Shown here in pieces: positions 8,287 through 25,441 of a DNA stretch of 32,000 nt. Source of the DNA: Horticoccus luteus (GTDB lineage: Bacteria; Verrucomicrobiota; Verrucomicrobiia; Opitutales; Opitutaceae); NCBI RefSeq assembly GCF_019464535.1, contig NZ_CP080507.1, positions 3,990,001 through 4,022,000 on the forward strand, in the 5' to 3' direction. Positions within the stretch are counted from its first letter, which is position 1. Each line of letters opens with the position of its first letter. Below the pieces are notes generated by a model. The model searched no databases, was not told where the DNA came from, and saw nothing but the letters and a program-made list of their open reading frames with translations. The position numbers were made by a program, and so were the translations under genes.

Positions 8287-8291
8287 GGCGA

Positions 8292-10893: not shown

Positions 10894-10905
10894 TTCTCTT
10901 CCTGC

Positions 10906-10953: not shown

Positions 10954-10957
10954 CACG

Positions 10958-11401
10958 GTGCAAATCCCCGAGCTTCTTGGCCGGCTCCATCCGGCGCTGC
11001 TTCATTTCCCAGTGGCATTGCTGGTGTTGGCCTCCGCACTGGAGGGCCTGCGCGGCTTTCGAGACTCGGACTTTCTCGGGCGCGCCGTCGCAAGCCTTTT
11101 TGGCCTGGGTGCACTGGCCGCGCTCCTGGCGGTGGGCAGCGGCTGGCTGCTCGCCGCCCATGAGCATATCCGTTCGGATCAAAAGGCGGTGCTGGAACTG
11201 CACCGCTGGCTGGCTGTGGGCACGGCCGTCTGGGCGATCGGAGCATGGGCCTGCGCCCGCGCTTGGCGCGAAGCGACCACGCCCGGCAGGATCTGGACCC
11301 GGCGGGCGGTGGCGGCGCTTACTTGCGGATTGATCACCGCATCCGCGCACGCCGGGGCAGTCCTCGTTTGGGGCAAAGACTGGTTTACCTTTACGTCATG
11401 A
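10958..11401 (+). CDS. DUF2231-like integral membrane protein
   Basis: LHPALLHFPVALLVLA signature near the N-terminus and about four TM helices. The GTG start at 10958 was chosen because it follows the hairpin and the YHS stop. Its stop overlaps the start of the next gene. Confidence 0.55.
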   Translation: MQIPELLGRLHPALLHFPVALLVLASALEGLRGFRDSDFLGRAVASLFGLGALAALLAVGSGWLLAAHEHIRSDQKAVLELHRWLAVGTAVWAIGAWACARAWREATTPGRIWTRRAVAALTCGLITASAHAGAVLVWGKDWFTFTS

Positions 11402-12858
11402 TGAATCGATCGACCTTGTATTCTCCCGGAGTGTGGCGCGCCGGCCTCCTCGGCATGGCCGGCATAATCTTCCTGGCCGGGTGTGCGACCAACCCCAAGG
11501 CCAGCTTGCCTGCGGTGCAGGAGGCAGTGGCCAGCCGGAGTGGACTCCAGGTGACGTGGCGGCAAACTGAGGCCGAGCGCGACGAGGCTGAGCGGGCGAT
11601 CACGACGTTGCTGGCTGAGGAATTGTCTCCGGAGCGGGCGGTGGAAATCGCCGTGATCAACAATCGCGAGCTGCGCGCGACCTTTGAGGACTTGGGAGTG
11701 TCGCAGTCCGAGCTGATTGCAGCGTCCCGGTTGAGGAATCCGAGTTTCGGCGTCGGCGTGCGCTGGCCCAAGGATCGTCCGCGCGGCCCCAACGTGGAGT
11801 TTTCAATCGCAGCCGACCTGCTCGACAGTGTGCTCTTACCCGTGCGCAGGAGTGTCGCCCGCGAGCAGCTCAGCCAAGCTGAGCAACGGGTAGCCCACGC
11901 GGTGCTCAGTCTCGCCGCGGAGGTCAAGACGGCGGTCTATGCCGTGGAAGCCCGGCAGCAGCTGCGGGTGCGGTTGGCTTCGGTCGTGGACGTAAACGCG
12001 GCGGCGACCGATCTTGCGCAGCGCCAGTTCCAAGCCGGAAACATCAATCAGCTCGAACTCGCGAACCAGCAGATGGCGGAACAGGAGGCGCGCCTGGGGT
12101 TGATGCAGGCGGAGGCGCAATTGCGAGCCGACCGCGAGCAACTCAATCGGTTGCTGGGTTTGTCGGGGAGGCAGACCGGCTGGACGCTGCCCGCGGAACT
12201 GCCTCCGCTGCCCGAAGCGGACGGCTTGCCAGACAATATCGAAGACCTTGCGGTGACACAGCGGCTCGACGTGGCGGCGATGAAGACGGACGTGGCCCTG
12301 GCCGAGAAGGCGCTGCGCTTGAAGCAGAAGACGCGGCTGCTTCCAGCTTCGATCGATCTCGGTCTCGATACTGAGCGCGATTCGGACGGCGGCCGGGTGA
12401 CCGGCCCCCGTCTGGAGTTCGCCCTGCCGATTTTTGATCAGGGGCAAGCGGAGCTGGCACGACTGGCGGCCGAACTGAGGCGCGCGAGTGCTCGCTACGA
12501 GGGATTGGCGAACGACGTTCGCTCGCAAGTCCGGGCGGGTCGCGACGCGCTGCTAGCGGCGCGCGAGGCGGCGGAGTATTATCAAAAGAGTCTTGTGCCG
12601 CAGCGGCGCACGCTGCTGCGGGAAACCCTCCTGCACTACAACGCCATGCAGAAGAGTAGTTACGAGTTACTGGCGGCCAAGGAACGTCTGCTCAACACCG
12701 AGCGAGAGAGTGTCGAAGCGTTGCGGGAGTATTGGACGGCCCGCACCGCCCTCGAAATGTCGTTAGGCGGTCGATTGCGATATGTCCCGGCGGCCGAGTC
12801 CGCGGCAGCCAAGGAAGAAGCGGTGCCCGAACATCAACATCAACACGGCAAGAACTAA
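11398..12858 (+). CDS. TolC-family outer-membrane efflux lipoprotein (CusC/CzcC-like)
   Basis: Lipobox IIFLAGCAT and two tandem long coiled-coil/barrel repeats typical of outer-membrane factors (486 aa). C-terminal tail PEHQHQHGKN. Confidence 0.85.
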   Translation: MMNRSTLYSPGVWRAGLLGMAGIIFLAGCATNPKASLPAVQEAVASRSGLQVTWRQTEAERDEAERAITTLLAEELSPERAVEIAVINNRELRATFEDLGVSQSELIAASRLRNPSFGVGVRWPKDRPRGPNVEFSIAADLLDSVLLPVRRSVAREQLSQAEQRVAHAVLSLAAEVKTAVYAVEARQQLRVRLASVVDVNAAATDLAQRQFQAGNINQLELANQQMAEQEARLGLMQAEAQLRADREQLNRLLGLSGRQTGWTLPAELPPLPEADGLPDNIEDLAVTQRLDVAAMKTDVALAEKALRLKQKTRLLPASIDLGLDTERDSDGGRVTGPRLEFALPIFDQGQAELARLAAELRRASARYEGLANDVRSQVRAGRDALLAAREAAEYYQKSLVPQRRTLLRETLLHYNAMQKSSYELLAAKERLLNTERESVEALREYWTARTALEMSLGGRLRYVPAAESAAAKEEAVPEHQHQHGKN

Positions 12859-12873
12859 ACTGCCCACGCTTCC

Positions 12874-14313
12874 ATGAAACCCGAACTTTCCCGACGTGAC
12901 TTCCTCGCGATGGCGGGCGGCGCCGCTCTCGCGCTGCCCACGGCGACCTTGCTCGCCAGCGGCAGCGAAACGGCACCCAAGCCCACGAGTGACGGCACCA
13001 CCCGTCCCTTTCAGCCGCCCGGATCGCCGGGTTACCGGCCGGTCATCACCCCCAACGGCCTTACCTTGCCGTGGAAGATGGTCGACGGTGTGAAGGTCTT
13101 TCACCTCGTGGCCGAACCGGTGCTTCATGAGTTCGCTCCCGGCCTGGTGGCCAATTGCTGGGGCTACAACGGACGTGTGCACGGCCCGACGATCGAGGCG
13201 GTCGAGGGTGACCGGGTGCGCATCTACGTCACGAACCGACTCGAGGCGCCGACCACGGTCCACTGGCACGGGGTATTGCTCCCGAGCGGTATGGATGGCG
13301 TTGGCGGCGTCAGCCAAAAGGCAATTCAGCCCGGTGAGACCTACAAATACGAGTTCACGCTCCGCCAGCACGGCACGCTGATGTATCACTCCCATCATGA
13401 TGAGATGACCCAGATGCAGCTCGGCATGATGGGGCTGCTTATCATCCACCCGAAAAATCCGAAAGCGCCGCCGCCGGATCGCGACTACGCGATCATGCTC
13501 TCGGAATGGAAGATTGAAGTCGGAGCCAAGCGACCCGATCCGAACGAGATGACGGATTTCAATGTCTTCACCATGAACGGCCGCAGCTTTCCCGGCACAC
13601 AGGCGCTCGTGGCGAGAAAGGGCGAGCGGGTCCGCATTCGCATCGGCAACCTGAGCACGATGAGTCATCACGCGATCCACCTGCATGGCTACTATTTCAA
13701 GGTGGTCGCGACGGATGGCGGCGAGATTCCCGAGAGCGGCCAATGGCCTGAGACGACGGTCCATATGCCCACCGGGAGCACCCGGACCATCGAGTTCGTG
13801 GCTGACGAGCCAGGCGACTGGGTCATGCACTGCCATATGCTCCACCACGTCATGACTCAGATGGGGCATCAGTTCGGAAACCTGATCGGCATCAACACCG
13901 AGGGCCTGAACAAGAAGATCAGACCGTTGGTGCCCGGATACATGACCATGGGCGAAACCGGCATGGGGGACATGGGCGACATGGGGATGACCGTGCCGCC
14001 GAACAGCCTGCCGATGGTGGGAGGACCCGGCCAGTATGACTACATCACGATGGGCGGCATGTTCACGATTCTGAAGGTCCGCGACGAATTGCCGGCCGAC
14101 GGGTCGGAACCGGGTTGGTATCAGTCGCCAGCCGGCACGCTGGCGCTGCCCGCCCCGGAGGAAGACTTGCGGCGCGATGGCATCGCGCTGGTGGCGGCCA
14201 CCGCCAAGCTCGAAGCCCGGGGGCAGCGCGTGGAGATCTGCGACCCGGCGGCCCTGGTCAAGAACGACGGGCCTCGTCAGGCGACGGCCCGGGTCAAGGT
14301 GGCGATACAGTGA
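12874..14313 (+). CDS. Tat-exported multicopper oxidase (CopA/CueO-type)
   Basis: Tat motif SRRDFLAMAGGAALALP. Copper ligand motifs HWHG, YHSHH, HLHG and HCHMLHHVMTQM. Met-rich loop GYMTMGETGMGDMGDMGMT. Confidence 0.9.
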   Translation: MKPELSRRDFLAMAGGAALALPTATLLASGSETAPKPTSDGTTRPFQPPGSPGYRPVITPNGLTLPWKMVDGVKVFHLVAEPVLHEFAPGLVANCWGYNGRVHGPTIEAVEGDRVRIYVTNRLEAPTTVHWHGVLLPSGMDGVGGVSQKAIQPGETYKYEFTLRQHGTLMYHSHHDEMTQMQLGMMGLLIIHPKNPKAPPPDRDYAIMLSEWKIEVGAKRPDPNEMTDFNVFTMNGRSFPGTQALVARKGERVRIRIGNLSTMSHHAIHLHGYYFKVVATDGGEIPESGQWPETTVHMPTGSTRTIEFVADEPGDWVMHCHMLHHVMTQMGHQFGNLIGINTEGLNKKIRPLVPGYMTMGETGMGDMGDMGMTVPPNSLPMVGGPGQYDYITMGGMFTILKVRDELPADGSEPGWYQSPAGTLALPAPEEDLRRDGIALVAATAKLEARGQRVEICDPAALVKNDGPRQATARVKVAIQ

Positions 14314-14323
14314 TTTTCCGTCT

Positions 14324-15397
14324 ATGAAGAAACTCGCATCCCTTTTGTTGCTGGCTGGCGTGGCGTTCAGCTCGAACGCGTTGGCTGGCGAAAAAACCGT
14401 GAGTCGGACGGAAGTCCAGCCGGCGACACAGCCCCAGCTGGCGGCTGACCTGAATGGCGAGGTCTGGCTGACCTACGGTCACGCCGAGGCGATCCTCGTG
14501 CGCCGCTCGGGTGACGGCGGCGAAACCTTTGGGGAGCCGATCAAGGTGGCCACCTTGCCGTCGCTGGCGCTCGGCATGCGCCGCGGACCGCGGATCGCGG
14601 TGCATGGCGATCACGTCACGATCACCGCCATCGGCGACGAGTTGGTATCGTTCCATTCGGGCGACGGCGGTCGGACCTGGTCAGCCGCCGTCACCATCAA
14701 CGATGTGGCCACGAGCGCCCGGGAAGGCTTGCACGACCTCGCCACGGCGCCCGACGGGCGGTTGTTTGTCACCTGGCTCGACCTGCGAGAAGGCGCGATG
14801 ATGGTCTGCGGGGCGGAGTCGGTCGATCACGGCCGGACTTGGAGTAAGAACGAACCTATTTACCGCTCTCCGGACAAGTCCGTCTGCGAGTGCTGCCATC
14901 CGAGCGCGACATTCGACGCGCAGGGAAACCTGGCGGTGATGTGGCGCAACTCCATCGCGGGTTCGCGTGACCTATGGATGGCGACACGAGCTGCCGGGGC
15001 TCGGGAATTCTCGGTTGCCCGCAAACTCGGCCAAGGGACTTGGAAGATTGCCGGTTGCCCGATGGACGGCGGACGGATCGTCGCTTATGGCCACGGCCGG
15101 TTCGGCAGCGTGTGGCAGCGAGCCGGGGAAATCTATTTCACGGCGGACAGCGGCTCAGAAGTCCTGCTTGGCCGCGGCAAACAGCCTGTCGCGGTTGTAT
15201 GCGACGGGAAGGTCTTCGCCTGCTGGCAGGATGGCCCGAACTTGGTCACGGCCCAACTTGGCCAAGGCGCTGCTGCGAAGCACGCGTCCAATGCGAAATT
15301 TGCAACAGCCTTGGCGCTCCCCGGAGGCGGGCTTCTGGTTGCTTATGAGCAGGCGGCCGAGACAAACCCGCCAGGCATTGTGATCGAGCGTTGGTAG
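14324..15397 (+). CDS. Secreted BNR/Asp-box beta-propeller protein (sialidase-fold-like) with Cys motifs
   Basis: Signal peptide MKKLASLLLLAGVAFSSNALA. Asp-box repeats SGDGGETF, SGDGGRTW and SVDHGRTW. Additional CECCHPS and GCPMDGG motifs. Confidence 0.75.
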   Translation: MKKLASLLLLAGVAFSSNALAGEKTVSRTEVQPATQPQLAADLNGEVWLTYGHAEAILVRRSGDGGETFGEPIKVATLPSLALGMRRGPRIAVHGDHVTITAIGDELVSFHSGDGGRTWSAAVTINDVATSAREGLHDLATAPDGRLFVTWLDLREGAMMVCGAESVDHGRTWSKNEPIYRSPDKSVCECCHPSATFDAQGNLAVMWRNSIAGSRDLWMATRAAGAREFSVARKLGQGTWKIAGCPMDGGRIVAYGHGRFGSVWQRAGEIYFTADSGSEVLLGRGKQPVAVVCDGKVFACWQDGPNLVTAQLGQGAAAKHASNAKFATALALPGGGLLVAYEQAAETNPPGIVIERW

Positions 15398-15491
15398 GGT
15401 TCTTGTAAGTGCGGGCCGACCGAGCTTTCGGGTTTGGCGTGAAATCCCATTTCGGTTGAGGGATTTACGAGAATGCCTTCGTTAAAGAAAC

Positions 15492-16139
15492 GTGCAGACG
15501 CTCCCGCAGAGACCAAAGTCAGGAAAAGCCTCTGGTCCGAAGGGGCGAAAACTTTCCATAACGCTGGAGGCGAATAGTGTGCGGGTCTTGGTGGTGGAAC
15601 GGGAACGCTTTCACCGGTTCCTGGCGGCGCGGCTGGGCGATGCGACTGTGGCGGACGATTTGCTACAGGACAGCCTCCTCGTCGCACTGCGCAAAGGCGG
15701 GACCCTGCGTCGGGGTGAGCGGGTGGTCGCTTGGTTTTACCGGATTCTGCGACGGGCGATCGTCGATCACTACCGCCGCCAGGCCCGAGACCGGCTCCGG
15801 CTGGATCGCCTCGGCAAAGAACTTCAAGCGACCGAGAGCGACCGGACGTCGCCGCCCCCGGATTGGGAGGCGGTCGTCTGTGCGTGCTTCGTCGGGTTGC
15901 TTCCGACGCTGAATCCGCGCTACGCCGACGTATTGCGACGGATGGATCTGCGCTCGGGACGCAAAGCTAGCGTCGCCCGTGAGTTGAATCTCACGGTCGC
16001 GACCTTGGATGTCGTGCTGCACCGGGCCCGGGCCCAGTTGCGTGAACGGCTGGAGGTTTTTTGCGGCGCTTGCAGCCGGGAGGGCTGTCTCAACTGTGCC
16101 TGTGAGGTCCGCGAACACCGCCGGACAGAAAAAGTGTAA
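15492..16139 (+). CDS. ECF sigma factor with C-terminal Cys-rich domain (CorE-like)
   Basis: Regions 2 and 4 are recognisable ([13 protein letters not shown]...[16 protein letters not shown]; [44 protein letters not shown]). There is a CAC motif in the linker and a C-terminal [15 protein letters not shown]. No adjacent anti-sigma gene. The start is uncertain (ATG 15492 or an internal GTG). Confidence 0.8.
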
Positions 16140-16168
16140 GGAATCGGTCCAGCGACCGTCAGCCAGGT

Positions 16169-18544
16169 ATGAAGCATCATTCTCCCAAGCATTCCCACTC
16201 GGATCACGGCCACTCTCACGGGGCGGAGGGCGCAGGCCAAACGGCCCGGGACGGCGGGAATGGCCACGCCGGGTGCCGCCATCACGGTTCCGGCGACCAC
16301 CGCGAACACCAGCCGAAGGCCGCGGCGGCCTACTACTGTCCCATGTGCGAGGGCGTCGAATCGGATCGACCCGGGGATTGTCCCAAATGCGGCATGGCGT
16401 TGGAGCGAAATCCAGCCTATCGCGAGCCCGCCAGGTCCATTTGGACCTGCCCGATGCATCCGCAGATCGAACAGGATCAGCCCGGCGACTGTCCCATTTG
16501 CGGCATGGCCCTCGAGCCGAAAGCCGTAACGTCCACGACGGTCGAGGACAGCCATGAACTGCGCGACATGACGCGGCGCTTCTGGGTGGGCGGACTGCTG
16601 GCGCTGCCGGTTCTCGTGCTGGGAATGCTGCATGTCGTGCCTGCGCTGCTGCACGTCGTGAATTCGCCGGCGAGCCGCTGGGCGCAGTTTCTCCTTTCGA
16701 CTCCAGTGGTCCTGTGGGCAGGCTGGCCCTTCTTCGTGCGCGGCGCGAAATCGCTGCGGTCTGGCCATTGGAACATGTTCACACTGATCGCCATTGGCGT
16801 AGGCGCGGCCTGGCTCTACAGCGTTGTCGCCTTCTTTGCGCCGGGCTTTTTCCCGCCCTCGATGCGGACGCATGGTGTGGTCGACGTTTATTTCGAAGCC
16901 GCTGCCGTGATCGTCGTTTTCGTGCTGCTCGGCCAGGTGCTCGAACTGCGGGCCCGGGCGCGCACGTCGACGGCCATCAAGGCCCTGCTCAATCTGGCTC
17001 CCCCGGTAGCACTGCGTCTGACCGCCGAAGGGGATCGCGAAGTCCCGCTCGACGCTGTGCAGGCCGGGGACCGGCTGCGCGTGCGTCCCGGCGCCAAGGT
17101 GCCGGTGGACGGCGTGGTCGAGGAAGGTGCGTCTGCTGTCGACGAATCCATGATCACGGGGGAATCGCTGCCGGTCGAAAAGAAAGTCGGCGACCACGTC
17201 ACGGGCGGCACCGTGAACGCGACTGGGAGCTTCGTGTTTCGGGCCGAGAAGGTCGGCACCGACACGATGCTCGCGCGCATCGTGAACATGGTTGCGGAGG
17301 CGCAACGCAGCCGGGCGCCGATTCAGGGCCTGGCGGATAAGGTGGCGGGGATTTTCGTGCCGGCCGTGGTGATTATTGCGGCGGTGACCTTCGTTGCGTG
17401 GTTTTTCATCGGCCCCGAACCGCGCCTAGCCCATGCCATCGTGAACGCCGTCGCCGTCCTGATTATCGCTTGCCCCTGTGCGCTGGGGCTCGCGACCCCC
17501 ATGTCCATCATGGTGGGAGTGGGCCGGGGGGCGCAGGCCGGAGTCCTCGTCAAGCATGCGGAGGCGCTCGAACTCCTTGGCAAGGTGAAGTGGCTGGTCG
17601 TGGACAAGACGGGCACCTTGACGGAGGGGCGGCCCCAGCTGGTGGATGTGGTGGTGGCCGATGGCACGGCTGAGACGGATCTCGTGCGGTTGGCCGCCGC
17701 GGTCGAGCGAGCGTCGGAGCACCCGCTAGCTGCGGCCATCGTTCGCGGTGCTGAACACCGCGGGATTTCGGTGCCGGAGGCGGCGGACTTTCGTTCGATC
17801 ACGGCCGGGGGTGTGATGGGCAAAGTGGAGGGGCGGTTGGTCCTCGTGGGGAAAGCCAAGTTTTTGGCGGACCAAGGCGTCCCGTCCGATTCCACCCTGA
17901 ACGAACGAGCTACCCAACTGCAGTTGGAGGGTAAGACCGCCCTATTTGTTGCGATTGACGGACGGTCCGCAGGGGCGCTCGCCGTGGCTGATCCGATCAA
18001 GGCGACGACCCGCGAAGCCATGGCGAATCTCCACGCGCTCGGCATTAAGGTGGTGATGGCAACGGGCGACAATCGTCACACGGCAGCATCCGTCGCACGG
18101 CAACTGGGGATCGACCGCTTCGAGGCTGAGGTCGAGCCCGCCCGCAAGATCGCCCTCGTGGAGGAGCTGAAGCGGACCGGAGACCGCGTTGCCATGGCGG
18201 GTGACGGGATCAACGATGCCCCGGCGCTTGCGGCTGCCGATGTGGGCCTGGCCATGGGCACCGGCACGGACGTCGCGATGGAAAGCGCGGGAGTGACGCT
18301 CGTGAAAGGCGACCTCCGGGGGATTGCGAAGGCGGTGCACCTGTCTCGCGCCACCATGGGAAACATCCGGCAGAATCTCTTCTTTGCGTTCGTTTACAAC
18401 GCGCTGGGCGTGCCGATCGCCGCCGGGGCCCTCTATCCTGTCTTCGGTTGGCTCCTGAGCCCGATCCTCGCGGGTGCGGCGATGTCCCTGTCATCGGTGT
18501 CGGTGATCACCAATGCCCTGCGGCTGCGGCGCATGCGGCTCTAA
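16169..18544 (+). CDS. copA: Copper-translocating P1B-type ATPase
   Basis: His-rich N-terminus [16 protein letters not shown]. Two CPMC/CPMH...CPxCGMAL metal-binding modules. TM CPC motif ([13 protein letters not shown]), DKTGTLT and GDGINDAP. Confidence 0.95.
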
Positions 18545-18601
18545 CGGGGACTTGTGCCGCTCCCGTCAACGGACCGATGGACTCCGAGCCGAGCCTGACC
18601 G

Positions 18602-18790
18602 CTACCTCGCCAACGACTTGAGGTGGGCGCTGATCACTTTGATGTCGATCTCGGCGCTGACGACGGTGGCGCGGGCTTTGGCGAGGCGCACCTCGGCTTT
18701 CATCAGCTCGCGTTTGAGCGTGTCGAGTTCGTCGGTCGTGGTGCGTGGGTTGCGTGCGGTAGCGGGTGATTCGGAGGTGCCGTTGTTCAT
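18602..18790 (-). CDS. Possible small coiled-coil protein (62 aa)
   Basis: ATG-initiated ORF in an otherwise empty gap with a helical heptad-like sequence (DELDTLKRELMKAEVRLAKARATVV). No family support. Confidence 0.3.
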   Translation of the reverse strand: MNNGTSESPATARNPRTTTDELDTLKRELMKAEVRLAKARATVVSAEIDIKVISAHLKSLAR

Positions 18791-18814
18791 GGTGAATTTC
18801 TTTGGATTATGAAT

Positions 18815-18881
18815 GCGCCGGTCAGCGGAGTGCTGACCGGCGCCGCTGATTGAAGCGGCTCGCGTGCGCCTGGCACGCGAG
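18815..18881. repeat. Two perfect GC-rich stem-loops (12-bp and 9-bp stems)
   Basis: GCGCCGGTCAGC-ggagt-GCTGACCGGCGC (18815-18843) and CTCGCGTGC-gcctg-GCACGCGAG (18859-18881). Confidence 0.85.
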
Positions 18882-18914
18882 CGCGCCTACCGGAAACGGG
18901 GGATCACGCCTCCC

Positions 18915-18946
18915 GAAAGAAAGGGAGCGGCCCGCAGGCCGCTCCC
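18915..18946 (-). terminator. Rho-independent terminator downstream of the DUF932-like gene
   Basis: GGGAGCGGCC-cgca-GGCCGCTCCC (18923-18946). On the minus strand it is followed by TTTCTTTC. Confidence 0.65.
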
Positions 18947-18956
18947 CGTGTGTGAC

Positions 18957-19692
18957 TCAGTTGTTCGCGAACTCGCTCGCGAGACTCCAGAGCGCCTTGT
19001 TGAGCTTCTGGCCCTCGCTCAAGCCGCCCACCGCGCGCGTCCGGTTGCGGCGGATGCCCATGCCGGCAGTGTAGCCCATGTAGCGGTCACCGCCTCGGAT
19101 CAGGTGTTCCTGAACCACATTGAAGGTAGTCCAGAGGTCCGTGGCGGCATCGCCGTATCGCACCGGCGCCAGCAACTTCTCAGGGCTAAGGAGCTTCATG
19201 ACGGGCTGATCGGCATCCCAACGAAGGCCCGCCGCGCGCCGGGCGAACTCGACGCGGGCGGCCTGCGGGAGCTGAACCGCCTGCCACTTGGCGACGGCCT
19301 CCAGCATGCGCGGCGTGTTCTCGGCGACGGACTGTGCTGCCTTGGCGAAAGCGTCGGCGGAAATGTCCACGTGCCGGATCGAGACATGGGCAAAGTCGGC
19401 ATCCGCGACGGTCAGACCGTTGCGGCACACCAACCGATACAGGCCCGCGGCGAGGCGGCCAAGGTATCACCCAAGCTTCTCCAAGCTGGCGCCGATTTGT
19501 CGGATACGGCGATCCGCTCGGGCGAAACCCACCATCTCACCGAACTCGGCCACGCTGTCGAATTGCTCGCGGGACTCGATCCGCGCCGGTTGCGCGGTGC
19601 TTCGGTTACGCCGATTGGTGAAGCTGCACGCCTTGGTCTACATGCTCCGGCATCCCCGCGAAGCCTACCGCAGCCGCGAAGTGAGGGCGCAT
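18957..19692 (-). pseudogene. DUF932-like (conjugative-element/plasmid-associated) gene, apparently disrupted
   Basis: The C-terminal 158 aa are intact. The family-typical AGLYRLVCRNGL motif lies just after an in-frame TGA (19467-19469). Further upstream the reading frame shifts again, with a candidate ATG at 19690-19692. The family assignment is from memory of the GLFRLVCSNG signature. Confidence 0.5.
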
Positions 19693-20046
19693 TTCGTCAG
19701 ATTCGGTCTTCGGATTAGTTCGCTAGACTTCCGGCGCTTCTGCAAACGCCACGGCATCCGGCACGACGAACGCGCCGGCCGTCCTCGGGATCACGCGAGC
19801 GCGCGAGCTGCCGGCTAACCAGGGGCCAGGGGCCGGACTCGACCCCAGTTAGGCGCTGGCGGCGTTCGGGGCCGCGCGCGCCGTGGCAAAGCGTCGCAGG
19901 GAACGGCGCGCGAAGCTCCGGCGACACCCTCCAAGCCCAGCCCATCTTACGTTGCGCCCCTTCGAAGCTGATCGGGACGGAGACTTGCGCCACGGCAAGG
20001 ACGGCTGAAATCGCTCGCACCAACAACCTAACGCAGGATCAAGCCG

Positions 20047-20490
20047 CTACACTTTTGGCGGTTTGATGCTTCGCCCAATTGCCGCACCGACGGCCGCCCC
20101 GAAGGCAACGCCGACAGGACCGCCAGCCAATCCAAACAATCCGCCGAGTATCCCGCCCGCCGCGGCGTTGTCGTCACGCATTTTGCCCTTCACGGCTTTC
20201 GAGTAGGGGGCGCGACTTGTGCCATTCCATTTTCGCGCGGTTCGGGTGGTGAAATCGCTCTTGTCCCGATTGCAGCGAATACATGCTGGAAACAAGTTGT
20301 TGCGATGGTCGGTGCCGCCACATGCGCGGGGACGCGAATGTTCCACTTCCCATGATCCGCGATTCCCGAGAGACGCGTAGTTTTTGAACGACAATTTGCA
20401 GTGGCAGATATGGCAATACCCGTCGGTGCGTTCGTAGATGGTGCGGAGCAGGGTGACTTCGTAGGGCATAAGAATCGATTGCTTGGTCAA
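20047..20490 (-). CDS. HNH nuclease fused to a C-terminal glycine-zipper hydrophobic tail (147 aa)
   Basis: CHICHC...WEVEHSRPRACGGTDHRNNLFPACIRCNRDKSD (CxxC / H-N / CxxC HNH core). The tail is AAAGGILGGLFGLAGGPVGVAFGAAVGAAIG. Confidence 0.8.
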   Translation of the reverse strand: MTKQSILMPYEVTLLRTIYERTDGYCHICHCKLSFKNYASLGNRGSWEVEHSRPRACGGTDHRNNLFPACIRCNRDKSDFTTRTARKWNGTSRAPYSKAVKGKMRDDNAAAGGILGGLFGLAGGPVGVAFGAAVGAAIGRSIKPPKV

Positions 20491-20512
20491 ATCGTCCGGA
20501 TCGGCGGCGTCA

Positions 20513-21355
20513 TCAGAGTCGGGGAAACAGCAGCAATGTCAGAACTCCGAAAGGGCCGAGTCGCACCGCCTGCTCAACGATCACACAGTTTCGCGGCGAT
20601 GAGGCCGTGACATGCGCGAACCAGAAGCTTGCGGTTGATGGCGCTTCGAAAACGGGGCTCAGGCCGCCACCCGAAACCGCCTCGTGCGCGGTTCTGGATG
20701 CGAAGCCCTCCGGCAGCGCGGTGACTTCGGGTGCATTGCCGTAATCATAGCCAAGTTTTCGCAACATCGGAGAAATCGCGGGCCACGGTCGCTTGCCGGG
20801 TCGGAACATCATCGCCGCACACGGCACCGGGCACTCTTCGACGTAACGGATGGCTGTCGCTTGTGCGGAGACGTTGAAGGTGCTGCTTAGATTGAGGAGC
20901 CCTTGTAGGCCGGGCTTCTCTTTCGTCGCCGCTTTTCTGAAATCGTGCTGCGGCATCAACAGGTGGGAAGAAAATGTGTTGGCTTCCGTTTCGATCACGG
21001 AGTTGCCCGCCTTGTCGATGAACGACCGGTGCGCGGGCACCCGGCCGGATGCGAGTGCGTTCCGGTGCTCGTCGATGAAGTAGTGACCAAGTTCGTGGCC
21101 GACGGTGAAGCGTGCTCGGGTTGAACCTGGGTAATCCGTTTCCCGCACGTTGCAGTAAATGTGAAACTGCCCCCTCCGGTGTTCGAGCACGCCGTCAAAA
21201 GCGTTCCCATAGTCGCCGGTCGAAAAGGTGATGCCCTGATCCTCGATGAGCGGTGTTGGTTGCACTGGAATGACGCTCCCGACATCCGCAAAAGCGGTTT
21301 CAGCGAGGTCGGCGATCCAGCGCCGCCGAGTAACGCTCAACTCCGTGTAGGCCAT
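20513..21355 (-). CDS. ImmA/IrrE-family zinc metallopeptidase with extended C-terminal domain (280 aa)
   Basis: HEXXH motif in FTVGHELGHYFIDEH followed by EANTFSSHLLMP, typical of the family. Confidence 0.85.
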   Translation of the reverse strand: MAYTELSVTRRRWIADLAETAFADVGSVIPVQPTPLIEDQGITFSTGDYGNAFDGVLEHRRGQFHIYCNVRETDYPGSTRARFTVGHELGHYFIDEHRNALASGRVPAHRSFIDKAGNSVIETEANTFSSHLLMPQHDFRKAATKEKPGLQGLLNLSSTFNVSAQATAIRYVEECPVPCAAMMFRPGKRPWPAISPMLRKLGYDYGNAPEVTALPEGFASRTAHEAVSGGGLSPVFEAPSTASFWFAHVTASSPRNCVIVEQAVRLGPFGVLTLLLFPRL

Positions 21356-21741
21356 TAGCGTTTTTTCTTGGCCTTCGCTTCGGCGGCGGCGCGGTGCTCG
21401 TCCATCCGCTGGCGGACCTCGGCATCGATCTCGCCGCCGTTACGGGCGGCCAAGGCGAGATCTTTCGCGAGCGCCGCGCTTTCAAACGGAAGGATTTTAG
21501 AAGCTTCGACTGGCTGGTCGCTCTTTTTGCCCCGCAAAAACTGTCGAAAGCTATTCACGTCGGGCGTGGGCAGTCGGGAATCGTCGACGGCGGCTTCAAT
21601 GCGATCGATGTCTTCCGGCGTTTCGGGAAAGGCGAGGCCGTCCTGCTTCATCATGTCGCGCAGGGCACGCTTCGTAGCGGCGAGGGTGGCTTTGTTCGTT
21701 GGAATGGGCTTGTTCATGTCTTTCGGGTGCTGACGGGGCAT
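21355..21741 (-). CDS. Hypothetical protein (128 aa), partner of the ImmA-like protease
   Basis: The ORF is translationally coupled to the protease gene (TAATG overlap at 21353-21357). It is a charged helical protein with a Lys-rich tail. I recognise no HTH. Confidence 0.55.
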   Translation of the reverse strand: MPRQHPKDMNKPIPTNKATLAATKRALRDMMKQDGLAFPETPEDIDRIEAAVDDSRLPTPDVNSFRQFLRGKKSDQPVEASKILPFESAALAKDLALAARNGGEIDAEVRQRMDEHRAAAEAKAKKKR

Positions 21742-21757
21742 TGGCGGACGAGGGGGA

Positions 21758-22474
21758 TTACTCGTTATCGAGCACGTGTTGCTTCATGCGCTCCAAGAGG
21801 CGGGAGCGTTGAGTTCGAAGTGAAATCTTGGTCATACCCAGCTCGGCGCAGAGTGCTTCCAAGACAGCCTTCGGCATGACGGTTTGCCCGGTGCGGCGGT
21901 CGTAATACTGCATGGTGTTGTAGAGAATCGCTTGGTCGTGGGGTGCCAGGCCGGAAACGAACGCACGAATGAGTGCGATCCGGCGGTGGGTCGGGGGCTC
22001 GGCCGCTTCGGTGTCCACCGGGTCGAGCGCCACGATGGCGCCCACGGTCTCGACATCGAATTCACAACGCTCTTCGCGCTCGGCGTATTCGCTGCGATAG
22101 GCGTCGATGCAGACGTTCTTCAGAATACAATAGAGCCAGAACTTGACGTGCTTGGTTTTCTCCGCGTCGGAGAGTTCCTTTTTTAACGGTCCGAACGTCT
22201 TCGCCGCGCGGAGAGCTTTCTGGAAGGTTTTCTTAACCAAATCCTCATGATTCTGGCGGTAGAGAAGAAAGCTTTTAGCGCACCAGCCGGTCATCTTTTT
22301 GGAGTGGCGCCGATACAACTCGGCCGCGGCGTCTTCGGCCATGATGGGCTCGTCGTCATCGAATCCCATGTAGGTCACCAGGGATTCATCCGTCTCGTTT
22401 TCCATGACTACTTTGTTTGCCGCACGTTCGGGAGGCTCTCGCTGAAGTTTTGGGAGGGATAAACCGTTCATCAC
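21758..22474 (-). CDS. Divergent ECF-like sigma-70 family protein
   Basis: Region-2-like ELYRRHSKKMTGWCAKSF...KFWLYCILKNVCIDAYR and region-4-like LAPHDQAILYNTMQYYD...EALCAELGMTKISLRTQRSRLLERMK. The start is ambiguous (22474/22471 or ATG at 22405). Confidence 0.7.
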   Translation of the reverse strand: MMNGLSLPKLQREPPERAANKVVMENETDESLVTYMGFDDDEPIMAEDAAAELYRRHSKKMTGWCAKSFLLYRQNHEDLVKKTFQKALRAAKTFGPLKKELSDAEKTKHVKFWLYCILKNVCIDAYRSEYAEREERCEFDVETVGAIVALDPVDTEAAEPPTHRRIALIRAFVSGLAPHDQAILYNTMQYYDRRTGQTVMPKAVLEALCAELGMTKISLRTQRSRLLERMKQHVLDNE

Positions 22475-22521
22475 TACTCTAACGAGAAGGCGTTACAGGG
22501 GACCGGCGAAAGGCGGCGTGT

Positions 22522-22535
22522 AACGGGGTCCCGTT
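22522..22535. promoter_or_regulatory. Palindrome AACGGG-GT-CCCGTT in the divergent control region (candidate operator)
   Basis: Perfect 6-bp arms. A related half-repeat GTTACAGGGGACC lies at 22492-22504, compared with GTAACGGGGTCC at 22520-22531. Confidence 0.35.
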
Positions 22536-22590
22536 GTAGGGGTGAAGGACAATCAGTCCTCTCTTTCAAACCATTAACCGAGGCAACACT

Positions 22591-22923
22591 ATGTCAGACA
22601 AGAATCAACCCAACGCCGGCCCCGATGCCGGTCTCGTCGACGAGGTCGATCTGGAGCAGGTCGCTAAAGCGGGCGGAAAGCCGCCGAAGGCCAAGCGTTA
22701 CCGCATCCGCATCGACGATCAATACTACGTCGTGAGCCAAGGCTCCATGACTGGCGCCGAGTTGCTGAAACTCGCCAGTAAAACGCCCCCGGAAAATTAC
22801 ATTCTGACCCAAAAGCTCCGGGGGGGCGTGATCAAGACTATCGGCCTGTCGGATGTCGTGGATTTCACCACGCCCGGCATCGAGCGTTTCAACACCCTGC
22901 CGCGGCAGGTGCAGGAGGGTTGA
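22591..22923 (+). CDS. Ubiquitin-like beta-grasp protein ('multiubiquitin'-type), C-terminus ends in Gly
   Basis: RYRIRIDDQYYVVSQGSMTGAELLKLASKTPPENYILTQKLRGGVIKTIGLSDVVDFTTPGIERFNTL matches the multiubiquitin-domain pattern as I remember it. The last codons are Q-E-G-stop. A GAGG Shine-Dalgarno lies 8 nt upstream. Confidence 0.7.
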   Translation: MSDKNQPNAGPDAGLVDEVDLEQVAKAGGKPPKAKRYRIRIDDQYYVVSQGSMTGAELLKLASKTPPENYILTQKLRGGVIKTIGLSDVVDFTTPGIERFNTLPRQVQEG

Positions 22924-22928
22924 AGCCC

Positions 22929-23312
22929 ATGAGGCATGATTTTTCTTTGCCCGAGGAGGACGAGGAAAGCCTCAATGCCTTGGGCATCCCATGGGAAACG
23001 ATCCGTGACGGGGGCAACCAATGGTTGCTCCTTCACGAGATGCCGTTTCGTGAGGGCTTCAACCATCGCACGGGGTCCGTTGCCGTGCAGATTCCGCCCA
23101 GTTATCCGACCGCTGGCCTCGATATGGCCTATTTCTTTCCCCATCTAGCAAGGCTCGACGGGAAGACTATCGGGCAAACTCAGTGCAAGCAGCCGATTGA
23201 CGGTAAGCAATGGCAGCGGTGGTCCCGGCACTACTCCTGGGTGCCGGGCGTGCACAGCGTCTCAACTCATGTGGTCCTCATCCATCGGTGGCTGGAAGCC
23301 GCCACAAACTAA
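22929..23312 (+). CDS. Prokaryotic E2/UBC-like protein (family-E-like)
   Basis: PPSYPTAGLDMAYFFPHLARLDG...QCKQPIDGKQWQRWSRH matches my memory of the prokaryotic E2 family found with JAB-E1 and multiubiquitin genes. GGAGG lies 10 nt upstream of the ATG at 22929. An alternative TTG at 22920 overlaps the Ubl stop. Confidence 0.7.
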   Translation: MRHDFSLPEEDEESLNALGIPWETIRDGGNQWLLLHEMPFREGFNHRTGSVAVQIPPSYPTAGLDMAYFFPHLARLDGKTIGQTQCKQPIDGKQWQRWSRHYSWVPGVHSVSTHVVLIHRWLEAATN

Positions 23313-24712
23313 TGCTTCGTCAACCCGAGATCATTCTCCGCCTTACGGCGACCCAGCACGACCAACTCAAGCGAACCCTCTTTCCCGGTGACGGCAAAGA
23401 ATCGGTCGCGGTGGCGCTCTGCGGCACGCATCGTAGCGCCCAACGCACCGTGCTCAGCGTGCATCGGATCAACGCCGTGCCGGACGAAAGTTGCACCGAG
23501 CGGAGTGCGGTTTCCGTCGTTTGGCCGACCGAACCACAGGTGCCGCTCTTCTCAGAGGGCGCGAGAAAAAAGATGGTGGTGCTGAAAATTCACAGTCATC
23601 CGTCGGGATTTCCCCGGTTTTCTGGCCTGGATGACAAAGCCGACCGTGCCTTGCTCGGGAGCTTGCTCAAGCTCGCGCCGAACGAAATCGGCCATGCGAG
23701 TGCCGTGATGCTGCCCGAGGGGAAAATCTTCGCGCGTCTCCTCGGGGGTGAGGGGCGATTTTCGAAAATCGCTCGCGTGGTGGTCGTGGGCGATGAAATC
23801 GTCAGCTTTGAGGACAGCCGTTCGATCAAGGGAGCGCTGTTTGATGAAGCCTTCCTGCGGACGCAGCAGGCATTCGGTGCCAGAACGGCTTCGATGCTCT
23901 CGAAAATGCGCGTTGGCGTCGTGGGTTGTTCTGGCACGGGGAGCTGGGTCGTCGAAATGCTGTCTCGACTCGGTGTTGGTGAACTCGTGCTCGTTGATCC
24001 CGATGTGATCGAGCGGAAGAACCTCAACCGTATCCTCAACAGCGTGGCGAGCGACGCCGCGGCGGCGCGCCCCAAAGTGAAGGTGTTCGCCCGTGCCATC
24101 CGACGCCTGGGTCTTGGCACGAAGGTGACGAGTTATCAGACAGACATTCTCCAGCGCAAAGTTGTCCACTCCTTGGCGGGCTGTGATTTTCTGTTCGGTT
24201 GCGTCGATTCTGCCGATGGCCGGGACGCGCTGAATCGGGTCGCTGCCTTTTACATCATCCCCTACGTTGATGTGGGTGTGCTCCTGCAAGCGGATGGGAA
24301 AGGCAGCGTGCAACAGGTCTGCGCCGCGGTTCACTATTTGATTCCCGACGGCTCAAGCCTCCTCAGCCGCCGCGTCATCACTGCTGAGCAGGTGCGCGCT
24401 GAATCGCTACGCCGGCGCTCTCCCGATCAATATGCGGCCTTGCGGAAGGAAGGCTACATTCAGGGCGTAAATGTCGATAGCCCGGCCGTGATCAGCATCA
24501 ACGGGTTTGCGGCGAGTCATGCGGTGAACGAGATGCTGGCCCGGATTCATCCGTTCCGACGCGATGCCAACGGCGAATTTCGTGCGCAGACTTTTTCGTT
24601 GTCTGACGGTGCGTGGTTGAGGATCGAAGACGGTCCGGTATGCCCGTTTCTTAGCAAGCGGACCGGTCGTGGAGATTGTGAGCCGATGCTCGATAACTCG
24701 GAACTGTCATGA
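23312..24712 (+). CDS. JAMM/JAB metallopeptidase domain fused to ThiF/E1-like adenylyltransferase (466 aa)
   Basis: Exact JAMM motif HSHPSGFPRFSGLD (H-x-H-x7-S-x2-D) from 23591. E1 Rossmann MRVGVVGCSGTGSWVVEMLSRLGVGELVLVDPDVIERKNLNR and FLFGCVDSADGRDALN. TAATG overlap with the E2 gene. Confidence 0.85.
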   Translation: MLRQPEIILRLTATQHDQLKRTLFPGDGKESVAVALCGTHRSAQRTVLSVHRINAVPDESCTERSAVSVVWPTEPQVPLFSEGARKKMVVLKIHSHPSGFPRFSGLDDKADRALLGSLLKLAPNEIGHASAVMLPEGKIFARLLGGEGRFSKIARVVVVGDEIVSFEDSRSIKGALFDEAFLRTQQAFGARTASMLSKMRVGVVGCSGTGSWVVEMLSRLGVGELVLVDPDVIERKNLNRILNSVASDAAAARPKVKVFARAIRRLGLGTKVTSYQTDILQRKVVHSLAGCDFLFGCVDSADGRDALNRVAAFYIIPYVDVGVLLQADGKGSVQQVCAAVHYLIPDGSSLLSRRVITAEQVRAESLRRRSPDQYAALRKEGYIQGVNVDSPAVISINGFAASHAVNEMLARIHPFRRDANGEFRAQTFSLSDGAWLRIEDGPVCPFLSKRTGRGDCEPMLDNSELS

Positions 24713-25065
24713 CCAAGAAATTCCTGCGCTGGATCGAACGCCTCTTTCGCACGACCAAGGATAGCGCCGAGGCGTTCCAATGGGCCAAGGTTGAACATTT
24801 GCCGACGCCGTTGGCGGAGAAAAAAATTTACGTGCTGGGAGACGACGAATGTGAATGGGCGGCTGCGATGGCCTGTCCTTGCGGCTGTGGATCGACCATT
24901 CACCTAAGCTTGGCTCCCGATAGTCGGCCCACTTGGCGCGTGCGGCGTCACCGCAACGGCACGGTCAGTCTCTTGCCCTCGGTTTGGAGAACCGTCGGCT
25001 GCCGGAGCCATTTTGTGCTCTACAAGGGCCGAATCTTTTGGTGCCGCAACGAGCCTTTCGAATAG
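24709..25065 (+). CDS. Small Cys/His-rich protein (118 aa), DUF6527-like
   Basis: C56-P-C58-G-C60 cluster plus C98-x-x-H101 and C112. ATGA overlap with the E1 stop. The family name is from memory of this gene neighbourhood. Confidence 0.65.
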   Translation: MTKKFLRWIERLFRTTKDSAEAFQWAKVEHLPTPLAEKKIYVLGDDECEWAAAMACPCGCGSTIHLSLAPDSRPTWRVRRHRNGTVSLLPSVWRTVGCRSHFVLYKGRIFWCRNEPFE

Positions 25066-25117
25066 AAAGGCCGCGTGCCTTATGAGGCCGGCGCGGTGAG
25101 GCTTGCCGCGCGTTACT

Positions 25118-25441
25118 TCACTGCCCTGCGGTCATGGTGTTGGTGCTCCCGGGGTTCATGGTGGTCGCCGTGAGGTTGGCGTTTGTCGTCAGAGGGTTAG
25201 TGTTGGTCGTCGGAAGGTTTAGGTTTGTCGTCAGAGGGTTAAGGTTTGTCGCCACGAGGTTTGTATTGGTCGCCACGGGGTTAGTGTTTGTCGCCGGAAG
25301 GTTAGTGTTGGTCGTCGGAGGGTTAGTTTTGGGCGACGGAGGGTTAGTGTTGGTCGTCCCGAGGTTAGTGTTGGTCGCCACAAGGGTCAGATTGGCACAA
25401 AACGCCGGAATAAGGGCTCCGCCCGAAAGCGTCTGTGCCAA
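25118..25441 (-). CDS. Possible Thr/Asn-rich heptad-repeat protein encoded by the 21-bp repeat
   Basis: The minus frame reads ...LPATNTNPVATNTNLVATNLNPLTTNLNLPTTNTN... using GC-ending codons. However, it only has a TTG (25439-25441) or an internal GTG start and no clear signal peptide. Confidence 0.3.
   Translation of the reverse strand: MAQTLSGGALIPAFCANLTLVATNTNLGTTNTNPPSPKTNPPTTNTNLPATNTNPVATNTNLVATNLNPLTTNLNLPTTNTNPLTTNANLTATTMNPGSTNTMTAGQ
25153..25404. repeat. About 12 tandem copies of a degenerate 21-bp unit (consensus GGTTAGTGTTGGTCGTCGGAG)
   Basis: Units start at 25153, 25174, 25195, 25216, 25237, 25258, 25279, 25300, 25321, 25342, 25363 and 25384, with exact 21-bp phasing. Confidence 0.9.

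What the first reader, a model, noticed from the sequence alone, without database searches (positions are those of the whole stretch)
24709..25065. Fourth gene: a small Cys/His-cluster protein translationally coupled to the E1, a candidate E3-like adaptor, specificity factor or peptidase
The residues C56-x-C58-x-C60, C98-x-x-H101 and C112 look like a zinc-knuckle or treble-clef arrangement (ACPCGCG ... GCRSHF ... WCRN). Its ATG overlaps the E1 stop (ATGA). Bil and CBASS cassettes, as I know them, have no equivalent component. In eukaryotic systems, small zinc-binding domains (RING and similar) provide E3 function. The PS...SH residues (LLPSVW, CRSHF) could alternatively form a hydrolase dyad. 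Its function is unknown.
Basis: partly seen in the sequence, partly recalled or inferred. Interest (0 to 1): 0.6.

Follow-up and report, generated by a model that had tools for sequence, protein, structure and literature searches.

The report
BubE serine protease of Bub operon
The small Cys/His protein is an ordinary member of the already described BubE (DUF6527) family, a zinc-stabilised serine-histidine peptidase that removes the ubiquitin-like tag in bacterial "Bub" conjugation operons; it is not an E3-like zinc finger.

Summary
The ORF at 24709-25065 (118 aa) is real, and its ATG overlaps the stop of the E1 gene (ATGA). It matches Pfam PF20137 (DUF6527, now named BubE) at 75.6 bits against a cut-off of 23.6. 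It is the last gene of a Type I Bub (formerly "6E") operon. The genes upstream match the crystallised Citrobacter BubB (E 3e-26) and BubCD (E 2e-74).

A gapless alignment to the Citrobacter BubE, whose activity Ye et al. 2024 (PMC11601596) tested, pairs the following residues:
- C56/C58/C60/C98 with its C4 zinc site.
- S91/H101 with its catalytic Ser-His dyad.

These six residues are invariant in 39 aligned homologues. The full motif is present in 83 of 85 homologues. C112 is not conserved.

The predicted structure is a beta-sandwich with no RING or other known fold. A complex prediction places the BubA C-terminal tail (103-110) against BubE 90-96 and H101 (score 0.69, best control 0.06).

The E3 reading is not supported. 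This scan has already met Bub operons in at least 34 other genomes.

Local peculiarities lie outside BubE: bubA and bubB are separate genes, and a sigma-factor/M78 regulator module sits upstream.

The parts
24709..25065 (+). bubE: 118-aa DUF6527/BubE protein, the finding itself
   Evidence: Pfam PF20137 at 75.6 bits against a cut-off of 23.6. 36% identity without gaps over 83 aa to the BubE of Citrobacter freundii plasmid pOZ181. That plasmid's neighbouring BubCD is essentially identical to the crystallised Citrobacter BubCD.
24715..24753 (+). N-terminal amphipathic helix (aa 3-15)
   Evidence: AlphaFold2 models a helix at residues 3-15 with low pLDDT, 55-64. The hydrophobic moment reaches 1.12 for KFLRWIERLFR. 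This matches the hydrophobic extension described for BubE in PMC11601596.
24874..24888 (+). CxCxC zinc knuckle (C56, C58, C60)
   Evidence: Invariant CPCGC in 39 homologues. Aligns to C57/C59/C61 of Citrobacter BubE.
24976..24981 (+). P90-S91; S91 is the predicted catalytic nucleophile
   Evidence: Invariant. Aligns to S92 of Citrobacter BubE. Lies in the predicted interface with the BubA C-terminal tail.
25000..25011 (+). C98 (fourth zinc ligand) and H101 (general base of the dyad)
   Evidence: Both invariant. They align to C99 and H102. H101 is in the predicted interface.
22591..22923 (+). bubA: single beta-grasp ubiquitin-like protein ending in Gly110, the predicted substrate of BubE
   Evidence: Pfam Multi_ubiq E 3.3e-13. 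Weak matches to solved BubA/multi-ubiquitin chains. 32 of 33 aligned homologues end in ...EG at the final residue.
22920..23312 (+). bubB: cysteine-independent E2 (Prok-E2_E) with the WSRH Ser/His motif
   Evidence: Pfam PF14462 E 6.3e-35. PDB 9eae_C Citrobacter BubB E 2.9e-26, with the WSRH motif aligned.
23312..24712 (+). bubCD: JAB peptidase-E1 fusion. Its stop overlaps the bubE start.
   Evidence: PDB 9ea4 Citrobacter BubCD E 2e-74 over residues 10-465. The JAB Glu, the HxH motif and the Asp-containing DD motif are conserved, as is the crossover-loop Tyr (GYIQGV against GYITGV).

Best explanation
The gene is bubE, the DUF6527 serine peptidase of a Type I Bub (bacterial ubiquitination-like, formerly 6E.1) operon. 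The proposed mechanism has five steps. (1) Four invariant cysteines (C56, C58, C60, C98) hold a structural zinc ion. This ties the CxCxC loop to the strand that carries H101. (2) The beta-sandwich docks on the beta-grasp domain of the operon's own ubiquitin-like protein BubA. (3) The extended BubA tail (residues 103-110) lies along BubE strand 90-96, which brings the carbonyl of Gly110 to S91. (4) H101 activates S91, S91 attacks the bond after Gly110, and the acyl-enzyme is hydrolysed. (5) The net effect is to strip BubA from targets, that is, negative regulation, editing and recycling of the tag made by BubCD (E1, Tyr oxyester) and BubB (E2, Ser oxyester). The N-terminal amphipathic helix may place the enzyme at the membrane. 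Shown here: family membership, residue equivalence and conservation, operon context, and a controlled complex prediction. Shown elsewhere for the 36%-identical Citrobacter protein: Ser/His-dependent cleavage of BubA-GFP, stimulation by Zn, and loss of cellular conjugates. Inferred: that this copy is active, the zinc binding, the geometry of catalysis and the membrane association.
For: - Pfam PF20137 scores 75.6 bits against a cut-off of 23.6.
- The gene's neighbours match the solved Citrobacter BubB (E 2.9e-26) and BubCD (E 2e-74).
- The Multi_ubiq / Prok-E2_E / ThiF / BubE gene order recurs at three homologous loci, including one with a fused Multi_ubiq-E2 gene. The 4-nt E1-stop/bubE-start overlap recurs at all loci inspected.
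- A gapless pairwise alignment to the Citrobacter plasmid BubE (E 5e-20) has an offset of +1. So C56/58/60/98 pair with C57/59/61/99, and S91/H101 pair with S92/H102. That plasmid's BubCD is the crystallised protein (844 bits).
- These residues are invariant in 39 homologues. The full motif is present in 83 of 85.
- The AlphaFold2 model has mean pLDDT 84.7 and shows an all-beta core plus an N-terminal helix.
- The complex prediction of BubA 30-110 with BubE 20-118 scores 0.69. The best of 3 controls scores 0.06. That mark was reached by 58 of 80 solved complexes and 2 of 110 mismatched pairs. The runs agree in at least 98% of contacts and the partner pLDDT is at least 86. The interface includes BubA 103-110 and BubE 90-96 and 101. 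No BubE chain is in the PDB, so the pass is not recall of a solved complex.
- Published biochemistry (PMC11601596): S92A and H102A abolish BubA-GFP cleavage, Zn stimulates activity, and BubE removes BubA conjugates in cells.
Against: - Nothing was measured for this protein.
- The published peptidase activity is extremely weak (48 h incubations). It rests on a preprint, and no BubE structure has been solved.
- Here BubA is made with its Gly already exposed, and the JAB domain of BubCD keeps its catalytic residues. So two peptidases coexist without an obvious division of labour.
- No biological role, such as phage defence, has been shown for any Bub operon.
Confidence: 0.83

Rival explanations
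1. BubE is chiefly an esterase. It would hydrolyse the pathway's oxyester species, namely BubA~Tyr on the E1, BubA~Ser on the E2, or Ser/Thr/Tyr-linked conjugates. Isopeptide bonds would not be its main substrate, and the weak peptide cleavage would be a side activity.
For: The Bub pathway runs through oxyester intermediates. A Ser-His dyad without an acid residue is a weak amidase, and peptide cleavage needed 48 h in vitro. In this clade BubA needs no processing and an intact JAB peptidase is already present. Loss of conjugates in cells would equally follow from discharging the charged E1 or E2.
Against: The only substrates tested so far, a peptide-linked BubA-GFP and cellular conjugates, were cleaved in a Ser/His-dependent way. 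No ester substrate has been tested, so there is no positive evidence. The predicted docking fits either bond type.
Confidence: 0.09
2. BubE is an E3-like relay enzyme. S91 would accept BubA from the E2 as a third oxyester and pass it to specific targets, by analogy with HECT/RBR ligases. Hydrolysis would be seen only when the true target is absent.
For: [quoted passage not shown] The authors themselves noted that this geometry fits either Ubl transfer or proteolysis. No E3 is known for Bub operons.
Against: Adding BubE removed conjugates in E. coli instead of increasing them, and conjugation proceeds without BubE. BubE cleaves a linear BubA-GFP fusion, which a pure transferase would not do.
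Confidence: 0.05
3. BubE would be a non-catalytic RING-like or treble-clef zinc-finger adaptor that recruits the E2 or substrates.
For: A conserved CxCxC...C cluster and translational coupling to the E1.
Against: Only four conserved metal ligands exist, against the eight that a RING needs. There is no RING-family Pfam match. An invariant Ser-His pair is unexplained by an adaptor role. The published point mutants show catalysis.
Confidence: 0.02

Closest known systems
BubE of the Citrobacter Type I Bub operon (Citrobacter sp. RHBSTW-00271; the same operon is on C. freundii plasmid pOZ181). Source: Ye, Gong, Chambers & Corbett, bioRxiv 2024, PMC11601596.
   Same: Same Pfam family (PF20137). Same position as the last gene of the operon. 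Gapless alignment with identical placement of the C4 zinc site and the Ser-His dyad. Similar length (118 against 113 aa) and a hydrophobic N-terminal extension. Predicted to bind the cognate BubA with its terminal Gly at the dyad (against their AlphaFold 3 models).
   Different: Only 36% identical over 83 residues, and the N-terminal 28 residues are unrelated in sequence. Its substrate BubA has one beta-grasp domain instead of three and is encoded as a separate gene that ends in Gly. In Citrobacter, BubA is a BubAB fusion that BubC must cleave.
Type I Bub / '6E.1' operons as a system (Iyer-Burroughs-Aravind '6E'; Millman et al. 'DUF6527' operons)
   Same: Ubl of the Multi_ubiq family, a cysteine-independent Prok-E2_E with the WSRH motif, a JAB-E1 fusion with the crossover-loop Tyr, and BubE. 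The operon lies beside a CapP-like M78 peptidase in what looks like a mobile element downstream of a tRNA gene (boundaries not established).
   Different: bubA and bubB are split.
Cap3 of Type II CBASS and BilC of Bil systems (JAB/JAMM deconjugases)
   Same: Proposed role: an operon-encoded peptidase that reverses the conjugation made by the operon's own E1/E2.
   Different: Unrelated fold and chemistry. Cap3 and BilC are zinc metallopeptidases in which zinc is catalytic. In BubE the zinc is structural and catalysis is by Ser-His.
RING/U-box and prokaryotic RING-like E3 domains
   Same: Small size, cysteine-rich, and associated with E1/E2 genes.
   Different: One C4 site instead of a cross-braced binuclear site. 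All-beta sandwich instead of a treble clef. An invariant Ser-His pair. No sequence match to any RING family.

Membership tests
BubE / DUF6527 (PF20137) | Sequence match to the family model above its curated cut-off | tested here: met
   75.6 bits against a cut-off of 23.6, covering profile positions 1-63 of 63. A whole-genome scan finds a single copy.
BubE / DUF6527 (PF20137) | Invariant Ser-His catalytic dyad (S92/H102 in Citrobacter BubE) | tested here: met
   S91/H101 align without gaps to S92/H102. Both are invariant in 39 homologues, and the motif is in 83 of 85.
BubE / DUF6527 (PF20137) | C4 zinc site CxCxC...C (C57/C59/C61/C99 in Citrobacter) | tested here: met
   C56/C58/C60/C98 are present, aligned and invariant. 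Metal binding itself cannot be tested here.
BubE / DUF6527 (PF20137) | Encoded next to a Bub E1 (ThiF) with a Ubl and Prok-E2_E in one operon | tested here: met
   Window gene order. The same order is found at homologous loci, and relatives have an E1 next to the DUF6527 gene.
BubE / DUF6527 (PF20137) | Compact beta-sandwich with a hydrophobic terminal extension and no close solved structural homologue | tested here: met
   The model has pLDDT 84.7, eight strands and helix 3-15. Foldseek against the PDB gives no hit at E <= 0.001. VIA-align against 48,161 chains gives a best Z of 3.3. The helix is amphipathic.
BubE / DUF6527 (PF20137) | Binds the cognate BubA with its C-terminal Gly at the dyad | tested here: met
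   This is a prediction only. Score 0.69 against a best control of 0.06 (mark reached by 58 of 80 solved complexes and 2 of 110 mismatched pairs). At least 98% contact agreement and partner pLDDT of at least 86. The interface is BubA 103-110 with BubE 90-96 and 101.
BubE / DUF6527 (PF20137) | Ser/His-dependent peptidase or isopeptidase activity on BubA conjugates | not testable with these tools
   Shown only for the Citrobacter protein (PMC11601596).
Type I Bub operon (6E.1) | JAB peptidase-E1 fusion with a catalytic crossover-loop Tyr and no catalytic Cys | tested here: met
   Full-length alignment to PDB 9ea4 (E 2e-74). GYIQGV aligns to GYITGV (Y370), there is no Cys in the aligned loop, and the JAB Glu, HxH and DD motifs are conserved.
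Type I Bub operon (6E.1) | E2 of family Prok-E2_E with catalytic Ser and His (S333/H335 of BubAB) | tested here: met
   The WSRH motif aligns identically to Citrobacter BubB.
Type I Bub operon (6E.1) | Ubl encoded as a BubAB fusion that BubC cleaves (stated for 'all Type I Bub operons') | tested here: not met
   bubA ends ...QVQEG-stop. bubB starts in another frame with a 4-nt overlap. Stand-alone homologues of about 110 aa are numerous, and 32 of 33 aligned ones end in Gly. A more distant locus, L003, has the fusion. This is therefore a split variant of Type I.
RING / binuclear treble-clef E3 domains | Eight conserved Cys/His ligands binding two zinc ions in a cross-brace | tested here: not met
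   Only C56, C58, C60, C98 and H101 are invariant. C48 and C112 vary, and H30, H65 and H81 are not conserved.
RING / binuclear treble-clef E3 domains | RING-like fold | tested here: inconclusive
   No RING chain appears among the fold matches, and the model is all-beta. Absence from a match list is not proof.

The most novel reading that the evidence does not exclude
BubE is not mainly an isopeptidase. It would be the hydrolase or relay matched to the pathway's unusual ester chemistry. In one version it is a proofreading esterase that discharges BubA~Tyr(E1) and BubA~Ser(E2) intermediates or ester-linked conjugates. In the other it is a third Ser-oxyester carrier acting like an E3. The split-bubA clade seen here is a natural system in which to separate the two peptidases' roles: the tag needs no processing, yet both an intact JAB domain and BubE are kept.
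Probability: 0.13. Interest if true: 0.65.

Novelty: new member of a known kind. Interest (0 to 1): 0.2.

Why it matters
For the finding as posed, it matters little. The gene's family, catalytic residues and probable role were published in 2024, and Pfam now carries the name BubE. The value of this report is in correcting the annotation from "E3-like zinc finger" to "Ser-His deconjugating peptidase with a structural zinc site". It also records a well-behaved, compact Type I Bub operon with a single-domain, ready-made Ubl. Because BubA here needs no JAB processing, this operon variant could help to answer two open questions about Bub systems. One is what BubE and the JAB domain each do. The other is what the pathway tags.

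Tried and rejected
- Sequence search of BubE against PDB chains found nothing below E 0.6, so there is no solved homologue.
- Foldseek against the PDB had a best E of 0.35. VIA-align against 48,161 representative chains had a best Z of 3.3 (ADAM17 prodomain), with all Z below 5. No informative fold match was found, in line with the authors' report.
- NCBIfam and PADLOC have no model matching BubE, BubA or BubB. Only generic ThiF/E1 hits appeared for BubCD.
- PHROGs gave no hit for the window BubE. tblastn against 50,697 phage records gave no hit.
- hhalign of my BubE alignment against the prophage-borne DUF6527-like protein of a relative gave only 2% probability. That link therefore rests on the Pfam model (37 bits) and the shared motifs.
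- The search for related loci with a 7-sequence alignment failed because no stretch was conserved enough.
- A search for an att-like direct repeat linking tRNA-Glu to the far side of the putative island found none, so the island boundaries stay unproven.
- The promoter/terminator scan gave nothing above the shuffled expectation.
- A literature search for later Bub/BubE papers found only the two 2024 preprints.
- I considered and rejected RING/E3, a metallopeptidase with catalytic zinc (the four ligands are all Cys, which is typical of structural sites), and C112 as a ligand (it is not conserved).
Full report
**Observation.**
The ORF at 24709-25065 on the plus strand encodes 118 residues. Its ATG shares three bases with the TGA stop of the upstream gene (GTCATGACC). 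The two further upstream junctions also overlap: GGTTGAAG between the first two genes and ACTAATGCT between the second and third.

I checked the codons on the sequence: TGT 24874-24876, TGC 24880-24882, TGT 24886-24888, TGC 25000-25002 and CAT 25009-25011.

**Identity.**
- The protein matches Pfam PF20137 (DUF6527) over the whole 63-position model, at 75.6 bits against a curated cut-off of 23.6. Newer Pfam releases label this family BubE.
- The three genes upstream are Multi_ubiq (22591-22923), Prok-E2_E (22920-23312) and a Prok-JAB + ThiF fusion (23312-24712).
- The E2 matches the solved Citrobacter BubB (9eae_C, E 2.9e-26).
- The fusion matches the solved Citrobacter BubCD over its whole length (9ea4_A, E 2e-74).

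The cassette is therefore a Type I Bub operon, earlier called "6E.1" or the "DUF6527 operon". It was described by Ye, Gong, Chambers and Corbett (bioRxiv 2024, PMC11601596) and by the companion paper PMC11601603.

**Residue equivalence with the characterised enzyme.**
A tblastn search of plasmids found 119 records carrying DUF6527 genes, 66 of them on plasmids predicted to be conjugative. One is Citrobacter freundii pOZ181. It has a BubAB gene of 362 codons, a BubCD gene of 456 codons and a DUF6527 gene of 113 codons. Its BubCD is essentially identical to the crystallised protein (844 bits, E 1e-253), so its BubE stands in for the enzyme studied biochemically.

The window protein aligns to it without a gap from residue 29 to 111 (36% identity, E 5e-20), with an offset of +1. 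This gives the following pairs:
- C56/C58/C60/C98 correspond to C57/C59/C61/C99, the proposed C4 zinc site.
- S91/H101 correspond to S92/H102, the catalytic dyad. Mutating either to alanine abolishes BubA-GFP cleavage and restores BubA conjugates in cells.

**Conservation.**
A search of 5.8 billion proteins returned 85 homologues, all carrying PF20137. In an alignment of 39 of them, down to 34% identity, the invariant positions are C56, P57, C58, G59, C60, W76, P90, S91, C98, H101, F102 and W111. A pattern test finds CxCxC...PS...CxxH in 83 of 85; the two exceptions are a frameshifted and a truncated entry. C112 is replaced by Ala or Val in 6 of the 39 sequences, and C48 is not conserved.

**Structure.**
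AlphaFold2 with this alignment gives mean pLDDT 84.7 and pTM 0.74. The core has eight strands (residues 24-111, pLDDT mostly above 90), and a low-confidence helix spans residues 3-15. The helix is strongly amphipathic, with a hydrophobic moment up to 1.12. This matches the hydrophobic extension the authors describe.

No solved structure resembles the model. Foldseek against the PDB has a best E of 0.35, and VIA-align against 48,161 chains has a best Z of 3.3. This repeats the authors' own negative result. Nothing RING-like appears.

**Substrate docking.**
I folded BubA residues 30-110 with BubE residues 20-118, each with its own alignment. The results were:
- Score 0.69, against a best of 3 controls of 0.06.
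- This mark was reached by 58 of 80 solved complexes and 2 of 110 mismatched pairs.
- The runs agree in at least 98% of contacts, and the partner pLDDT is at least 86.
- The confident interface comprises BubA 71-83 and 101-110, and BubE 64-72, 90-96, 101 and 112.
- The pairs 106:94-96 and 107:93-94 place the BubA tail antiparallel along the strand that carries S91. The terminal Gly110 then lies next to S91 and H101.

No BubE chain is in the PDB, so this is not recall of a solved complex. It is a prediction and not a measurement. It agrees with the AlphaFold 3 models reported for two other BubE-BubA pairs.

**Mechanism.**
The best-supported reading is a zinc-stabilised Ser-His dyad peptidase. 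It recognises the beta-grasp domain and C-terminal tail of its own operon's Ubl and cleaves after the terminal glycine. This removes BubA from the targets to which BubCD (E1, Tyr oxyester) and BubB (E2, Ser oxyester) have attached it.

In the window, the partner enzymes keep their published catalytic residues:
- The WSRH motif in BubB.
- The crossover-loop Tyr in GYIQGV, with no Cys in that loop.
- The JAB Glu, the HxH motif and the Asp-containing DD motif.

Activity, zinc binding and membrane association of this particular protein are inferred and not shown.

**Rivals.**
The published peptidase activity is very weak (48 h incubations), and the pathway runs through esters. An esterase or proofreading role, or an E3-like Ser relay, is therefore not excluded, and the authors themselves raised Ubl transfer as an alternative. 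Against the relay: conjugation proceeds without BubE, and BubE removes conjugates.

**What differs here.**
[quoted passage not shown] Here bubA ends ...QVQEG-stop, and bubB starts in another frame with a 4-nt overlap.

This split form is common. A search returned 160 stand-alone Multi_ubiq proteins of about 110 aa, and 32 of 33 aligned ones end in the same glycine. Close loci show the same split, while a more distant one has the fusion. The JAB domain nevertheless keeps its active site, so its role in this clade is unexplained.

**Context.**
The divergent upstream module is a sigma-70-family protein, a 128-aa protein with no Pfam match, an M78/CapP-like peptidase and an HNH nuclease. The first three of these recur beside close homologues; no HNH gene was seen there. 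An earlier follow-up in this scan (e1-2726794) read this module as a sigma-factor version of CapH+CapP.

The operon lies at the far end of a probable mobile element downstream of tRNA-Glu (5187-5263). The element carries RadC, DUF932 and copper-resistance genes, and GC content is lower at 20-25 kb. I found no att repeat.

DUF6527 is patchy among relatives: 3 of 24 genomes of the same family and 0 of 16 from other families of the order. This fits horizontal transfer. The copies in those relatives sit next to E1 genes of about 390 aa, a different architecture that may be Type II; I did not check the domain content.

**A lead outside the window.**
One relative (G020) also has a divergent DUF6527-like gene (PF20137 at 37 bits). 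It lies between a dNMP kinase gene and a Caudovirus prohead protease gene, with no homologue of this operon's BubA, BubB or BubCD within the 10 kb fetched. It matches phage family phrog_3362 (E 3.6e-33) and keeps a CxxCxC motif, PS and a C-H pair.

Foldseek of the window's model against viral structure predictions finds two proteins of 88-89 aa: A0A8E7FZU2 (E 1.3e-6, TM 0.83 by target) and A0A7S5UXZ9 (E 5.6e-4). Phage-borne BubE-like peptidases could be counter-defence deconjugases. The link is weak by hhalign, and I did not follow it further.

**Verdict.**
- The E3 interpretation is not supported.
- The gene is a new member of a known family.
- The scan has already reported Bub operons in at least 34 other genomes.
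- Interest is low for the gene itself. The split-BubA variant and the possible phage homologues are the only points that go beyond the literature.

Noticed in passing
window 22591-23312: bubA and bubB are separate, frame-shifted genes with a 4-nt overlap, and BubA ends in a ready-made Gly. [quoted passage not shown] A search returned 160 stand-alone homologues of about 110 aa, and 32 of 33 aligned ones end in ...EG.
   Followed up: partly
window 23312-23800 (JAB domain of bubCD): The JAB peptidase keeps its catalytic Glu, its HxH motif and its Asp-containing DD motif, although no BubAB pre-protein exists here for it to cleave. Its role in this split clade is unexplained.
   Followed up: partly
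window 20047-22474 (minus strand): A divergent module: a sigma-70-region-2 protein, a 128-aa protein with no Pfam match, an M78/CapP-like peptidase and an HNH nuclease with a Gly-zipper tail. The sigma/small-protein/M78 trio recurs beside close bubE homologues. An earlier follow-up covered it (e1-2726794).
   Followed up: partly
L010:5885-6298 (relative genome G020, contig 18): An orphan, divergent DUF6527-like gene in a prophage-like setting (dNMP kinase upstream, prohead protease S78 downstream) with no BubA, BubB or BubCD homologue in the 10 kb fetched. It matches phrog_3362 (E 3.6e-33) and keeps Cys, PS and CH motifs. Two BFVD viral proteins of 88-89 aa share the BubE fold. These may be phage anti-Bub deconjugases. 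hhalign support is weak.
   Followed up: partly
window 5187-25100: A probable mobile island downstream of tRNA-Glu (5187-5263). It carries RadC (6959-7558), DUF932 (18957-19433) and copper-resistance cargo: an OEP, a multicopper oxidase, a P-type ATPase and a second sigma-70-family gene. GC dips to 0.57-0.60 at 20-25 kb. No att direct repeat was found.
   Followed up: partly
window 25139-25411: An array of 21-bp tandem repeats begins 74 bp after the bubE stop. Nine overlapping 105-nt copies are in register. The array is open on both strands, and its function is unknown.
   Followed up: no
L011, L012, L013 (relatives G020, G021, G018): The DUF6527 genes of the window's family-level relatives sit next to E1 genes of about 390 aa. 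One locus also has the sigma/M78 pair. This architecture differs from the window's and may be Type II; domain content was not checked.
   Followed up: partly
L014 (C. freundii plasmid pOZ181, 115578-118374): The experimentally studied Citrobacter Bub operon, or a near-identical copy, lies on a conjugative IncHI2A plasmid next to a gamma-mobile-trio element (gmtX, gmtY). The same BubE match recurs on large Enterobacter, Salmonella, Klebsiella and Serratia plasmids.
   Followed up: no
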